From Escherichia coli (GTDB taxonomy: Bacteria; Pseudomonadota; Gammaproteobacteria; Enterobacterales; Enterobacteriaceae), in the NCBI RefSeq assembly GCF_022846255.1, contig NZ_AP025682.1: DNA of 64,000 bases, one strand, 5' to 3'. Positions 1-7,167 of the stretch are shown piece after piece. The position numbers were made by a program, and so were the translations under genes. The notes under the pieces are model-generated. The model saw only the letters and a list, made by a program, of their open reading frames with translations. It made no database searches and was not told where the DNA came from. Numbering within the stretch: position 1 is the first letter of the stretch; each line of letters starts with the position of its first letter.

Positions 1-1145
1 TCGGATTTAACGCTCTCGATAAATTCAAACGAGCTACCGGCACTCTGTTGCAGCTCCAGCAGGCTTTGCATCCAGCGCTGGGCGCGGATTTGCGCGGTGG
101 TGCTGGTTTCGCCGTGCTCTTTATAAGCCCAGTGCGCGGCAACACCCATCTCTGCCATCTGATCCATATCTTCGGTACGGATCTGGACCTCAACCGGCAC
201 GCCGTGCGGGCCAATCATCGAGGTGTGCAAAGACTGATAGCCGTTCGCTTTTGGAATGGCGATATAGTCTTTCACGCGGCCCGGACGCGGCTTGTACAGG
301 CTGTGCATCTGGCCCAGCACGCGATAACAGGTGTCAGAATCATTGACGATCACGCGGAAAGCGTAGATGTCCATGATTGAGTGAAAACGCTGCTCTTTGA
401 GCACCATTTTGCAGTAAATCGAATAAAGATGCTTTTCGCGACCACTGACGCGGCACGGTATTCCCGCTTCCTGCAAACGCCCTTCGATTTCAGAAAGAAT
501 CTTCTGGATCATCTCTTTACGGTTGCCGCGCGCGGCTTTCACCACTTCTTTGATTACGCGATAACGGTTGGGATACAGCGCCTCAAAACCCAGCTCTTCG
601 AGTTCGGTTTTAATGTGGTGGATACCTAAACGGTGTGCCAGCGGGCTGTAAATTTCGAGGGTTTCACGGGCGATGCGGCGACGTTTGTCCGGGCGAAGTG
701 CGCCCAGCGTGCGCATGTTGTGGGTACGGTCGGCAAGTTTGATGAGAATGACGCGGATATCCTGCACCATCGCCATAATCATCTTGCGAAAGTTTTCGGC
801 CTGCGCCTCTTTCTTATCGCGGAACTTGAGCTTATCAAGTTTCGACACCCCCTCTACCAGCTCGGCGACGCTTTTACCAAAAAGCTGTTCCATGTCCTGG
901 TAGGTGGCGGGAGTATCTTCAATCACGTCATGCAGCAGCGCCGCCATCAGCGTTTCATAGTCGAGTTTCATCTCGGCCAGAATGCAGGCAACCGCCACCG
1001 GGTGCGTGATATAGGGTTCACCGCTTGAACGTGTTTGCCCCTCGTGAGCATCACGTGCAACGAGATACGCCTGCCGCAGACGCTTGATTTGGTCTTCCGG
1101 CAGGTAGTTTTGAATCAGCTGATTCAGGCTTTCAAACAGATACAA
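1..1145 (-). CDS. spoT: Bifunctional (p)ppGpp synthetase/hydrolase SpoT, N-terminal part; 3' end lies beyond window start
   Basis: Reverse translation from 1145 reads (TTG)YLFESLNQLIQ..., matching the SpoT N-terminus; TTG start at 1143-1145; sits downstream of rpoZ as in the gmk-rpoZ-spoT operon. Confidence 0.9.
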   Translation of the reverse strand, partial: MYLFESLNQLIQNYLPEDQIKRLRQAYLVARDAHEGQTRSSGEPYITHPVAVACILAEMKLDYETLMAALLHDVIEDTPATYQDMEQLFGKSVAELVEGVSKLDKLKFRDKKEAQAENFRKMIMAMVQDIRVILIKLADRTHNMRTLGALRPDKRRRIARETLEIYSPLAHRLGIHHIKTELEELGFEALYPNRYRVIKEVVKAARGNRKEMIQKILSEIEGRLQEAGIPCRVSGREKHLYSIYCKMVLKEQRFHSIMDIYAFRVIVNDSDTCYRVLGQMHSLYKPRPGRVKDYIAIPKANGYQSLHTSMIGPHGVPVEVQIRTEDMDQMAEMGVAAHWAYKEHGETSTTAQIRAQRWMQSLLELQQSAGSSFEFIESVKS

Positions 1146-1163
1146 GGGCGACCCGCTTTGTGA

Positions 1164-1439
1164 TTAACGACGACCTTCAGCAATAGCGGTAACGGCTTGT
1201 AATTCAGCGGCTTCCTGCTCTTGCTGTTCCTGACGTTCGCGAACGTCGAGGATCTGGTTGTTGATCAGACCTTCTTCAATTTCGCGCAGCGCGATTACAG
1301 TGGTTTTATCGTTTTCTTCCGGTACCAGCGGATCCTTTCCGCCTACCTGCATCTGACGAGCGCGACGCGCGGCGACCAGTACCAGGTCAAAACGGTTACC
1401 AATTTTCTCTACAGCGTCCTGAACAGTTACGCGTGCCAT
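1164..1439 (-). CDS. rpoZ: RNA polymerase omega subunit
   Basis: 91-aa [32 protein letters not shown]... recognised as RpoZ. Confidence 0.95.
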
Positions 1440-1493
1440 ACTTAAAAAGCTCCACAGGTGAAGAAATGACTGGGCATGATACTGAAATCAGGT

Positions 1494-2227
<734 letters not shown>

Positions 2228-2282
2228 ATTTTGCGTAGCTGCTTCCGCATTTGCCTGTGATTCACTGCAATAAAGACGATTC

Positions 2283-2326
<44 letters not shown>

Positions 2327-2333
2327 TCTTCAC

Positions 2334-4671
<2,338 letters not shown>

Positions 4672-4981
4672 GGTTCTCTCCCTAAAAATCTGTCTGGCAG
4701 GGTAGCGATTTGTGCGTATTGTCACGATTGAGATTTTTTAAGGTGAGAGGAAATTGATAACTTTTAGTTATGTGAAATCGCTATTTTCTGTAGCGTAGAT
4801 GTATTCTTCTGACTTCTTGTCTGAGAAAATGCATAAGAAAAAATAGGTTAAAATTGAGGGTGGAAAAGAAAGGTGCAATGTTTAGCCATTGTGTTCACCG
4901 CACCTGGACTTTGGCTTACGCATCGGGTATCTCAATCAACAAAAAGAGTTTTTAGTTTCTGCTATTTCTTCTCTGTAATTT

Positions 4982-5239
4982 TTACACTGTTTTCCAACTG
5001 CTTGATGCTGACCTGCGGGGTCGGCAACTTAATACAACCATTTTGGTGGTTTCAACGAAATGGTCAGATGCAGCTTGATTGCTGGCTTCGCACGCTTGAG
5101 TCGCGCGGGCCAGTACCTTTTGAAAATTGCGCGAGTCCCGATAATCCAGTAACGGTGCCAATTCTCTCGCTGACCAAAATTCTTGCCCTTCAGTGCCATA
5201 ATGCCGTATTTCTTCAAAAGGTTGATGATGTTCGTTCAT
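4982..5239 (-). pseudogene. dinD: Truncated DNA-damage-inducible protein DinD (about 85 aa left of a ~274-aa protein)
   Basis: ORF MNEHHQPFEEIRHYGTEGQEFWSARELAPLLDYRDSRNFQKVLARA... matches the DinD N-terminus, then diverges and stops; no long in-frame continuation on the minus strand between 4726 and 4982; LexA box just upstream; position between yicC and yicG matches dinD. Confidence 0.55.
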
Positions 5240-5282
5240 TGCCCACTCCATGTGATATCGATTGCAAGGAAAGTAAGTTTAC

Positions 5283-5302
5283 AACTGTGTTTATATACAG
5301 TT
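5283..5302. promoter_or_regulatory. LexA (SOS) box AACTGTGTTTATATACAGTT upstream of the dinD remnant
   Basis: Perfect CTGT-N8-ACAG palindrome with AT-rich centre, about 45 bp upstream of the dinD start. Confidence 0.65.
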
Positions 5303-5460
5303 GTGAGCATCTCACGTTCTCACTGCGCTGGGCAAAAAAACATCGCAAAATCTGGAGCAGGCACGCAAAACAGAATTGAATGTTGCGGGGAGGAAAAATG
5401 CCGCTCTGTTTGAGTGGGCGGCATTTGTGAAGGCTGAAAAGGAAGAATTGGCGTTACGAG

Positions 5461-6324
5461 TTATTCAATGTTCTGGATCTGCTCGCGCATCTGCTCAATC
5501 AACACTTTCAGCTCGATGGCAGAATTCGTCACTTCGGCATTGATAGATTTCGACGCAAGAGTGTTCGACTCGCGGTTGAACTCCTGCATCATAAAGTCCA
5601 GACGACGGCCAACCGCTTCTTTTTTCTTCAGAATGTTGTAGGTCTCTTTGACATGCGCTTCGAGGCGGTCCAGTTCTTCGGCAACGTCAATTCGTTGTGC
5701 CAGCAGAACCAACTCCTGCTCCAGACGGTTGTTTTCCAGTTGCACCTGAGCATCTTCCAGCTTCGCGACCAGACGCTCACGCTGCCATTGCAGGATTTCC
5801 GGCATATGGGCGCGGACTTTGACCACTTCGGCGCTGACGCCTTCCAGACGCTGCTCGATCAATGCTTTCAGCGCCTGACCTTCGGTTTCGCGCGCGACGA
5901 TAAAGTCGTCCAGCGTACCATCCAACGCCGCGAGAATTTCAGCGGCAATCGCGTCGAGATCCTGCTCCTGGGCTGCCATTACGCCCGGCCAGCGCAGAAT
6001 ATCAACCGGGTTGATTTCCCCTTCGTCACTCTGCATTTTTACCCAGTTCGCGGCAGTTACCAGCTGTTTAGCCAGTTTTTCGTTGAGGATCAGCTCACCT
6101 TGCGCGCTAACATCTGGCTCATAGCGCAGGGTACATTCCACTTTACCGCGCGTCAGGCGAGAACGAATACGCTCACGAACGACAGGTTCAAGGCTACGGA
6201 ACTGCTCCGGCAGACGAAAGTAAGTTTCCAGATAACGCTGGTTTACCGAGCGCATTTCCCAGGTTGCGCTCCCCCATTCACCCTTGATTTCACGCCGGGC
6301 GTAGGCGGTCATACTGCGGATCAT
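5461..6324 (-). CDS. yicC: UPF0701 protein YicC
   Basis: 287-aa ORF MIRSMTAYARREIKGEWGSATWEMRSVNQRYLE... recognised as YicC. Confidence 0.9.
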   Translation of the reverse strand: MIRSMTAYARREIKGEWGSATWEMRSVNQRYLETYFRLPEQFRSLEPVVRERIRSRLTRGKVECTLRYEPDVSAQGELILNEKLAKQLVTAANWVKMQSDEGEINPVDILRWPGVMAAQEQDLDAIAAEILAALDGTLDDFIVARETEGQALKALIEQRLEGVSAEVVKVRAHMPEILQWQRERLVAKLEDAQVQLENNRLEQELVLLAQRIDVAEELDRLEAHVKETYNILKKKEAVGRRLDFMMQEFNRESNTLASKSINAEVTNSAIELKVLIEQMREQIQNIE

Positions 6325-6450
6325 AGACGTTCCTGTTTATAAAAGGAGAGGTGGAAGGATTATAGCCATCGATGCCTTGTCAGGATAGGAATAACCGCCG
6401 GAAGTCCGTATAATGCGCAGCCACATTTGTTTCAAGCCGGAGATTTCAAT

Positions 6451-7167
6451 ATGCGTCCAGCAGGCCGTAGCAATAATCAGGTGCGTCCCGTTACCCTGAC
6501 TCGTAACTATACAAAACATGCAGAAGGCTCGGTGCTGGTCGAATTTGGCGATACCAAAGTATTGTGTACCGCCTCTATTGAAGAAGGCGTGCCGCGCTTC
6601 CTGAAAGGTCAGGGCCAGGGCTGGATCACCGCAGAGTACGGCATGCTGCCACGTTCTACCCACACCCGTAACGCGCGTGAAGCGGCGAAAGGTAAGCAGG
6701 GTGGACGCACCATGGAAATCCAGCGTCTGATCGCCCGTGCTCTTCGCGCGGCAGTAGATTTGAAAGCGCTGGGTGAGTTCACCATTACGCTGGACTGCGA
6801 CGTGCTTCAGGCTGATGGTGGCACGCGTACCGCGTCGATTACGGGTGCCTGCGTGGCGCTGGCAGATGCGCTACAGAAGCTGGTGGAAAACGGTAAGCTG
6901 AAAACCAATCCGATGAAAGGGATGGTAGCCGCGGTTTCTGTCGGGATTGTGAACGGCGAAGCGGTTTGCGATCTGGAATACGTTGAAGACTCTGCCGCAG
7001 AGACCGACATGAACGTAGTGATGACCGAAGACGGGCGCATCATTGAAGTGCAGGGGACGGCAGAAGGCGAGCCGTTCACCCATGAAGAGTTACTCACCTT
7101 GTTGGCGCTGGCCCGAGGGGGAATCGAATCCATTGTAGCGACGCAGAAGGCGGCGCTGGCAAACTGA
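6451..7167 (+). CDS. rph: Ribonuclease PH, full-length 238 aa (no rph-1 frameshift)
   Basis: [45 protein letters not shown]... reads through to ...[11 protein letters not shown]. Confidence 0.95.

What the first reader, a model, noticed from the sequence alone, without database searches (positions are those of the whole stretch)
4726..5302. dinD reduced to an ~85-codon remnant that still carries its LexA box
The ORF begins with the DinD N-terminus (MNEHHQPFEEIRHYGTEGQEFWSARELAPLLDYRDSRNFQKVLARA...) but ends after about 85 codons, and the yicG-yicC interval is too short to hold a full ~274-aa dinD. The SOS operator AACTGTGTTTATATACAGTT and promoter region are intact. An SOS-induced transcript would therefore still be made and would encode only a short N-terminal peptide or act as non-coding RNA. 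The ~250 bp between the stop and yicG is unassigned.
Basis: partly seen in the sequence, partly recalled or inferred. Interest (0 to 1): 0.45.

Follow-up and report, generated by a model that had tools for sequence, protein, structure and literature searches.

The report
dinD pseudogene from 547-bp deletion
The DNA-damage-inducible gene dinD has lost 547 internal bases in this E. coli strain, leaving a dead stub behind its intact LexA operator; the same ordinary pseudogene is already annotated in 41 other complete E. coli genomes.

Summary
On the minus strand between yicC and yicG, an ORF (ATG 5239, stop 4982-4984) encodes 70 native DinD codons plus 15 out-of-frame codons. A perfect CTGT-N8-ACAG LexA box (5283-5302) sits 63 nt upstream, exactly as in intact dinD.

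Alignment with full-length alleles shows one clean 547-bp deletion (CDS nt 211-757) with zero microhomology, junction at 5030|5029. The "unassigned" ~250 bp is the last 68 nt of dinD plus the normal 290-bp dinD-yicG spacer.

It is not a sequencing error. The identical junction occurs in 41 of 5,426 complete E. coli genomes on several flanking haplotypes. An SRA-derived contig is 100% identical to the window over 6.4 kb. RefSeq already annotates these as two pseudogene fragments.

dinD is a dispensable accessory gene: about 12% of genomes, including ST131, lack it entirely, and other lesions exist.

The most likely state is a decaying pseudogene. Its SOS-regulated promoter probably still fires, giving a short transcript and a truncated BRO-N peptide with no expected function. 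A retained function, as a peptide or as an RNA that pairs with tisAB, is not excluded but is unlikely. Interest is low.

The parts
5461..6324 (-). yicC (intact upstream neighbour; flank, not part of the lesion)
   Evidence: 287-aa ORF. Annotated as yicC in all related loci.
5240..5460 (-). yicC-dinD spacer containing the dinD promoter region and 5' UTR
   Evidence: Collinear with the spacer upstream of intact dinD, differing only by scattered SNPs. The simple sigma-70 consensus scan found no site that passed its threshold.
5283..5302 (-). LexA (SOS) box, AACTGTATATAAACACAGTT on the gene strand
   Evidence: Read directly. It is one of only 2 CTGT-N8-ACAG matches in the window. It has the same sequence and the same 63-nt distance to the ATG as in intact alleles, and differs by 1 nt from the K-12 box. 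LexA dependence of K-12 dinD was shown by RT-qPCR in PMC3009722.
5030..5239 (-). dinD codons 1-70 (N-terminal 59 of 96 positions of the BRO-N domain), with a private W36S change
   Evidence: Pfam Bro-N scores 28 bits and covers profile positions 1-59/96. NCBIfam DinD equivalog NF008573 scores 101.6 bits, below its 242-bit cut-off.
5029..5030 (-). Deletion junction: 547 bp (dinD CDS nt 211-757) are missing between these two bases
   Evidence: Alignment A1. The breakpoint placement is unique and has zero microhomology. The gap is identical in all 9 carriers examined. The 70-mer spanning the junction is found as one piece in 41 genomes.
4982..5029 (-). Frameshifted tail of the remnant ORF (SCRPRRSASSSWKTV plus stop TAA at 4984-4982)
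4962..5029 (-). Retained last 68 nt of the native dinD CDS (..LPTPQVSIKQLENSVKITEKK, native stop TAG at 4964-4962), now out of frame
   Evidence: PGAP labels the same piece as a pseudogene fragment named 'DNA replication protein DnaD'.
4995..5010 (+). 16-nt sequence identical to a stretch of tisAB RNA, so the dinD transcript is complementary to tisAB here
   Evidence: Exact match to CAACTGCTTGATGCTG reported in PMC2577331. It carries a SNP in one group of carriers.
4672..4961 (-). Native dinD-yicG spacer, including a 10-bp hairpin (4871-4905) followed by a U-rich run (4861-4870) as a candidate dinD terminator
   Evidence: Conserved in all strains with dinD. The yicG-proximal ~150 bp is also conserved in dinD-less strains. 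The hairpin comes from the fold; the z-score of the whole 126-nt fold (-0.9) is not significant. The terminator scan found none, because the loop exceeds its limit.
4054..4671 (-). yicG (intact downstream neighbour; flank)

Best explanation
This is an ordinary, naturally segregating pseudogene allele of the accessory SOS gene dinD.

Shown:
- A single illegitimate (non-homologous) deletion removed 547 bp (CDS nt 211-757). This cut the BRO-N domain after codon 70, removed the whole central and C-terminal part of the protein, and shifted the frame, so translation stops 15 codons later.
- The LexA operator, the upstream spacer, the ribosome-binding region, the last 68 nt of the gene and the downstream spacer were left untouched.

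Inferred:
- LexA still represses this promoter and DNA damage still induces it.
- Induction would give a transcript about 550 nt shorter than normal, probably ending at the native hairpin and U-tract near 4861-4905.
- That transcript would encode an 85-residue peptide lacking 37 of the 96 BRO-N profile positions and everything downstream.
- The peptide is therefore expected to be non-functional, and DinD activity (reported inhibition of postsynaptic RecA filaments) is expected to be lost.

The allele arose once. It has persisted on several flanking haplotypes through descent and homologous recombination, and it is tolerated because dinD is dispensable.
For: - Deletion defined: alignment against two intact alleles and another short allele shows one 547-bp gap and otherwise collinear sequence. 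The breakpoint is unique with no microhomology, and 547 = 3x182+1.
- Intact alleles match the DinD equivalog NF008573 end to end at 488-504 bits. The remnant scores 101.6 bits over profile positions 6-81 only, below the 242-bit cut-off. Bro-N is covered only over positions 1-59 of 96.
- Not an artefact: the junction 70-mer is contiguous in 41 of 5,426 complete genomes. All 9 carriers examined have the identical gap. A Logan SRA contig is 100% identical to window 606-7057.
- Already annotated: RefSeq/PGAP marks these as pseudogene fragments.
- Dispensability: about 674 genomes have no match to this interval, and those sampled (ST131 and others) lack dinD and its operator entirely. There is also a 222-bp in-frame deletion allele and ISKox3-associated alleles. 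[quoted passage not shown]
- Relaxed constraint (suggestive only): the 70 retained codons show 3 nonsynonymous and 1 synonymous change among carriers, against 0 and 3 among intact alleles. Extra 1-bp indels occur in the remnant or spacer of two carriers.
- Operator: it is identical to that of intact alleles. K-12 dinD is LexA-dependent (PMC3009722).
Against: - No expression data were available, so continued SOS induction, the transcript end and translation of the 85-aa ORF are all inferred.
- The consensus scan found no sigma-70 promoter-like site, so the promoter is located only by homology to intact dinD.
- The nonsynonymous/synonymous contrast is not significant (Fisher p = 0.14).
- SNP density in the remnant (1.5-1.9 per 100 bp) is no higher than in the neighbouring spacer or yicG, so decay is not demonstrable.
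- The ORF start, the operator and the tisAB-complementary 16-mer are all still intact in this strain, which leaves room for a residual role.
Confidence: 0.9

Rival explanations
1. The remnant has been kept because it still works. It could act as an SOS-induced small protein (a partial BRO-N domain). It could also act as a short SOS-induced RNA that pairs with the tisAB toxin mRNA through the retained 16-nt complementary site.
For: The operator, start codon and 70 native codons are intact in all carriers examined. The 16-mer complementary to tisAB lies just 3' of the junction and is intact in the window. PMC2577331 reports that tisAB overexpression sensitises a uxaA dinD double mutant to UV less than it does wild type. 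The allele has persisted long enough to sit on several flanking haplotypes.
Against: The 16-mer carries a G-to-A SNP in the 1190/O166:H15/UID2309 group, which corresponds to the 27 of 41 carriers with one mismatch. PMC2577331 could not show any tisAB-mediated effect on dinD mRNA. The BRO-N domain is cut at profile position 59 of 96. Three of the four substitutions in the retained codons are nonsynonymous, including Trp36 to Ser in this window. About 12% of E. coli genomes have no dinD sequence at all.
Confidence: 0.05
2. The truncation is a sequencing or assembly artefact of this genome, either a collapsed region or an indel error.
For: None was found.
Against: The lesion is a 547-bp gap, not a single-base indel. 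The identical junction is present in 41 complete genomes from different laboratories, hosts and countries. It is also in an assembly of a public read set that is 100% identical to the window over 6,452 bp, although whether that read set is independent of the window's own assembly is unknown.
Confidence: 0.01
3. The short form is ancestral, and the 547 bp in other strains are an insertion.
For: dinD as a whole is an indel polymorphism relative to dinD-less strains.
Against: With the 547 bp present, the ORF is uninterrupted for 274 codons and matches the DinD family profile end to end. Without them, the two halves are in different frames. The 547 bp are about 98% conserved between otherwise divergent alleles. 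They have no repeats or mobile-element features at their ends.
Confidence: 0.01

Closest known systems
E. coli K-12 dinD (pcsA, b3645; NP_418102.2), a LexA-regulated gene encoding a 274-aa BRO-N-domain protein reported to inhibit postsynaptic RecA filaments (Uranga et al. 2011, cited in PMC4849656)
   Same: Same locus between yicC and yicG, on the same strand. Same LexA box position (63 nt upstream of the ATG), with a 1-nt difference. The first 11 codons are identical. The last 68 nt of the CDS and the downstream spacer are identical in the aligned region.
   Different: CDS nt 211-757 are missing and the frame is broken. Residues 12-70 belong to the alternative, non-K-12 N-terminal allele, which is the commoner one in E. 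coli.
RefSeq pseudogene pair 'BRO family protein' and 'DNA replication protein DnaD' (for example PPECC33_RS19910 and RS29690 in E. coli PCN033), present in 41 complete genomes
   Same: Identical deletion junction, and the same 85-codon ORF apart from point substitutions.
   Different: The window carries private SNPs: W36S in the remnant, and an A-to-G change 9 nt upstream of the LexA box. Its flanks differ from these carriers (about 1.3% from the WP4-S18 carrier over 24 kb; SNP table). The 'DnaD' product name is a naming artefact applied to a 23-codon fragment.
dinD-less allele (for example ST131 strain 4433; about 12% of complete E. coli genomes)
   Same: Both alleles lack DinD function. Both show that the gene is dispensable in nature.
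   Different: The dinD-less allele has no operator, promoter or coding remnant, only a 251-bp yicC-yicG spacer. The window keeps the operator and both ends of the gene.

Membership tests
DinD (NCBIfam NF008573 / PRK11525 equivalog) | Whole-protein score at or above the curated cut-off (242 bits) with an end-to-end match to the 288-position profile | tested here: not met
   The remnant scores 101.6 bits over profile positions 6-81. Intact alleles score 488-504 bits over positions 6-279. The remnant is a fragment of a DinD gene, not a DinD protein.
DinD (orthologous locus) | Location between yicC and yicG on the same strand, with collinear nucleotide homology to intact dinD | tested here: met
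BRO-N domain (Pfam PF02498) | Score above the gathering threshold (25.6 bits) and coverage of the domain | tested here: inconclusive
   The score of 28 bits just passes the threshold. However, only profile positions 1-59 of 96 are present, against 1-88 in intact DinD.
LexA regulon (SOS box) | CTGT-N8-ACAG palindrome with an AT-rich centre in the promoter region | tested here: met
   The box lies at 5283-5302. It is identical to the box of intact alleles and 1 nt from the K-12 box.
LexA regulon (SOS box) | LexA binding and damage-inducible transcription | not testable with these tools
   These are known for K-12 dinD (PMC3009722). They have not been measured for this allele.
Pseudogene | Disruption of the reading frame relative to intact orthologues, with loss of most of the protein | tested here: met
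   The 547-bp out-of-frame deletion removes 182 of 274 codons. PGAP flags the same allele as a pseudogene.
PADLOC candidate defence family PDC-S13 (considered for full-length DinD only) | Full-length match to the PDC-S13 profile | tested here: met
   Intact DinD alleles match PDLC04919 at E = 1e-121 to 1e-125 over the whole length. The family is only a candidate with no experimental support that I know of. The remnant itself was not scanned.

The most novel reading that the evidence does not exclude
The stub is not dead. Under this reading, the SOS-induced short transcript, which keeps the 16-nt site complementary to the tisAB toxin mRNA, or its 85-residue partial BRO-N peptide, has a regulatory role in the SOS response of this lineage. 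Carriers would then have converted a protein gene into a small SOS-inducible RNA or micro-protein.
Probability: 0.04. Interest if true: 0.45.

Novelty: already known. Interest (0 to 1): 0.1.

Why it matters
It matters little. It is one more example of loss of a dispensable accessory SOS gene.

Its practical value is for annotation:
- The locus should be marked as a single dinD pseudogene, not as 'BRO family protein' plus 'DnaD'.
- The 168-aa antisense ORF that gene callers pick up here (4873-5379) is spurious.

There is also a natural experiment on offer. Carriers such as PCN033 provide a dinD-null background with a preserved LexA-controlled promoter. These could be compared with strains carrying intact dinD and strains lacking it entirely, to ask what DinD does in vivo.

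The more interesting background fact is that dinD behaves like a variable accessory gene. It shows presence/absence polymorphism, two very divergent BRO-N alleles, and a match to a candidate defence family.

Tried and rejected
- Sequencing error or single-base frameshift: rejected.
- Deletion through a direct repeat or microhomology: none exists; the breakpoint placement is unique.
- Known RNA family in or around the remnant: Rfam found no match in 4000-6500 at E <= 1.
- Consensus promoter and terminator scan of 4600-5500: nothing passed the thresholds. A hairpin plus U-run in the native spacer was seen only by folding, and the fold is not statistically distinctive.
- Carriers as one tight clade: not supported. 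Flanking SNP patterns are mosaic and some intact-dinD strains are as close to the window as other carriers are. With an identical junction lacking microhomology, the reading is a single origin followed by recombination in the flanks.
- Selection test on the retained codons: the direction fits relaxed constraint, but the test is underpowered (p = 0.14).
- Exact look-up of the 85-aa and 89-aa products: neither is in the protein collection. The window's LigB is present as an E. coli protein, WP_137501911.1.
- Primary dinD papers (Ohmori 1995; Uranga 2011): not held in the library.
- Literature search for a described dinD pseudogene: nothing relevant found.

Full report
**What is there**

The window around the finding is the E. 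coli ligB / yicG / dinD / yicC / rph / pyrE region. On the minus strand, yicC ends at 5461 and yicG begins at the ATG at 4671.

Between them lies an ORF starting at the ATG at 5239 (MNEHHQPFEEIRHYGTEGQEFW...). It ends at TAA 4984-4982 and is 85 codons long. The ORF lister extends it to 89 codons from an upstream in-frame ATG.

Sixty-three nucleotides upstream of the ATG is AACTGTATATAAACACAGTT on the gene strand (window 5283-5302). CTGT-N8-ACAG occurs only twice in the 64-kb window, against 0.66 expected.

**What happened to the gene**

megablast of the 789-bp yicC-yicG interval against 5,426 complete E. coli genomes shows that most genomes hold about 1,335 bp here, annotated as dinD. The match in those genomes is split into two pieces.

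I aligned the window with a closely related intact allele (ECCNB12-2), with K-12, and with another short allele. The result is one gap of 547 bp and otherwise collinear sequence.

- The deletion removes CDS nt 211-757, which is codons 71-252 plus one base.
- The breakpoint placement is unique, so there is no microhomology.
- 547 = 3x182+1, so the frame shifts.
- The junction lies between window 5030 and 5029.

The remnant ORF is therefore 70 native codons plus 15 frameshifted codons (SCRPRRSASSSWKTV). The last 68 nt of the native CDS (5029-4962, native stop TAG 4964-4962) are retained but out of frame. They are followed by the ordinary 290-bp dinD-yicG spacer (4961-4672).

**Family tests**

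- Intact alleles match the NCBIfam DinD equivalog NF008573 end to end at 488-504 bits against a 242-bit cut-off.
- The remnant scores 101.6 bits over profile positions 6-81 only.
- Pfam Bro-N is covered over positions 1-59 of 96, against 1-88 in intact DinD.
- The stub is a fragment of a dinD gene, not a short DinD.

**Not an artefact**

- A 70-mer centred on the junction is contiguous in 41 of 5,426 complete genomes. Another 12 of the 53 high-coverage hits are two-piece joins across intact dinD.
- The carriers come from humans, dogs, chickens, mink, gulls, soil and water, in many countries.
- All nine carriers I fetched have exactly the same gap.
- RefSeq/PGAP annotates each as two pseudogene fragments, "BRO family protein" (missing C-terminus) and "DNA replication protein DnaD" (missing N-terminus). 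The second name is an artefact of naming a 23-codon piece.
- The window's LigB protein exists in NCBI as an E. coli protein (WP_137501911.1).
- A Logan assembly of SRA run SRR33442678 is 100% identical to window 606-7057. That includes the deletion and the private W36S change. I do not know whether this read set is independent of the window's own assembly.

**History of the allele**

Over 24 kb, the window is only about 98.7-98.9% identical to its best matches in the collection, whether they are carriers or non-carriers. The differences are spread evenly.

In the 2.8 kb around dinD, carriers fall into several flanking haplotypes. Some strains with intact dinD (ECCNB12-2, E7-1N7, LR-28) are as close to the window as other carriers are. 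The closest carrier is an O158:H23 strain.

The junction is identical and has no microhomology. The economical reading is a single deletion event whose flanks have since been reshuffled by homologous recombination. This is inferred, not shown.

**Constraint**

- Among carriers, the 70 retained codons show 3 nonsynonymous changes (E3D, A24V, W36S) and 1 synonymous change.
- Six intact alleles of the same type show 0 nonsynonymous and 3 synonymous changes.
- The direction fits relaxed constraint, but Fisher p = 0.14.
- Two carriers have additional 1-bp indels in the remnant or spacer.
- SNP density in the remnant is no different from that in the neighbouring spacer and yicG.

**Dispensability of dinD**

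- About 674 genomes give no match to the interval.
- Those sampled, ST131 and Z1323HEC0355, have only a 251-bp yicC-yicG spacer, with no dinD, no promoter and no LexA box.
- Other alleles include a 222-bp in-frame deletion still annotated as dinD (200 aa), ISKox3-associated alleles, and an island carrying PerC and ImmA/IrrE genes inserted upstream of dinD.
- PMC2577331 states that dinD is dispensable for growth. [quoted passage not shown]
- DinD is cited as a factor that helps remove RecA filaments (Uranga et al. 2011, cited in PMC4849656).

**How the stub most likely behaves**

The operator is identical to that of intact alleles. K-12 dinD is LexA-dependent by RT-qPCR (PMC3009722).

From this I infer that the promoter is still repressed by LexA and induced by damage. 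I also infer that the transcript probably ends at the native hairpin (4871-4905) and U-rich run (4861-4870) in the spacer. That fold is not statistically distinctive, and the consensus scans found neither a promoter nor a terminator. The encoded peptide lacks more than a third of the BRO-N domain and everything after it, so I expect it to be non-functional.

**Residual-function rival**

The dinD transcript still contains the 16-nt site complementary to tisAB RNA (window 4995-5010; PMC2577331). The site lies just 3' of the junction.

Three points argue against a role for it:
- That paper could not show any effect of tisAB on dinD mRNA.
- The site carries a G-to-A SNP in one carrier group. That group corresponds to the 27 of 41 carriers with one mismatch in the junction 70-mer.
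- About 12% of E. coli genomes lack the whole locus.

I give this rival about 5%.

**Comparison with what is known, and verdict**

This is a dinD pseudogene that is already annotated as such in RefSeq genomes carrying the identical allele. I found no paper describing it, but nothing about it is unexpected. Novelty: already known. Interest: low.

Noticed in passing
window 5030-5205 (dinD codons 12-70); L001:2294-2510 versus L003:1755-1970: DinD has two very divergent allelic forms of the BRO-N core. 39 of the 43 amino-acid differences between the K-12 type and the window type fall in residues 12-83, while the rest of the protein is about 98% identical. Roughly 2,700 complete genomes carry the window type and about 2,000 carry the K-12 type or another type. 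This looks like a recombination-delimited, possibly diversifying segment.
   Followed up: partly
L017:2365-2615 (ST131); L004:3924-4173: About 12% of complete E. coli genomes (about 674 of 5,426, including ST131) have no dinD, no promoter and no LexA box, only a 251-bp yicC-yicG spacer. Only the ~150 bp nearest yicG is homologous (about 84%) to the dinD-yicG spacer. dinD is therefore an accessory cassette rather than a core SOS gene.
   Followed up: partly
L003:1722-2546; L001:2261-3085 (intact DinD): Full-length DinD matches the PADLOC candidate phage-defence family PDC-S13 (E about 1e-125, full length). It also matches the N-terminal 260 positions of a 717-position 'Type I specificity subunit' profile. 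A paper on programmed inversions lists a dinD-domain gene inside a type I R-M locus (PMC9881135). Together these hint that DinD may be defence-related.
   Followed up: partly
window 4995-5010 (+): The 16-nt tisAB/dinD antisense motif described by Weel-Sneve et al. 2008 (PMC2577331) survives just downstream of the deletion junction. It carries a G-to-A SNP in the 1190/O166:H15/UID2309 group of carriers.
   Followed up: yes
window 4873-5379 (+): A 168-aa ORF antisense to the dinD remnant and its operator spans the deletion junction. It is called as a gene with no Pfam hit in the Logan assembly of the identical sequence (L019:4268-4774). It is almost certainly a spurious call made because the real gene is broken.
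   Followed up: partly
L009:1-2300 (GF43); L013:1-2200 (SCU-123): In two strains, yicC is not immediately upstream of dinD. Instead there are genes for a PerC-family regulator, an ImmA/IrrE metallopeptidase and hypothetical proteins, indicating an island or prophage inserted between yicC and dinD. One of these strains carries the deleted allele and the other carries intact dinD.
   Followed up: no
L018:1585-2187 (strain E94 and others with a 2,595-bp span): Another dinD allele has an in-frame 222-bp deletion, giving 200 aa. RefSeq annotates it as an intact 'DNA damage-inducible protein D'.
   Followed up: no
hits H55-H66: Twelve genomes with annotated intact dinD have the two halves of the junction 70-mer spanning 599-607 bp instead of the expected 617 bp. 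That suggests a further dinD length variant, 10-18 bp shorter.
   Followed up: no
window 1-24000: The window is only about 98.7-98.9% identical to its best matches among 5,426 complete RefSeq E. coli genomes, with the differences spread evenly. An exact LigB match (WP_137501911.1 / GDA56889.1) and an identical SRA contig do exist. The source is therefore an E. coli lineage without a close relative in that collection.
   Followed up: partly
window 5308 and 5133: There are two private substitutions relative to all 14 other alleles compared: an A-to-G change 9 nt upstream of the LexA box, and TGG-to-TCG (Trp36Ser) in the remnant. Both are also present in the identical Logan contig.
   Followed up: partly
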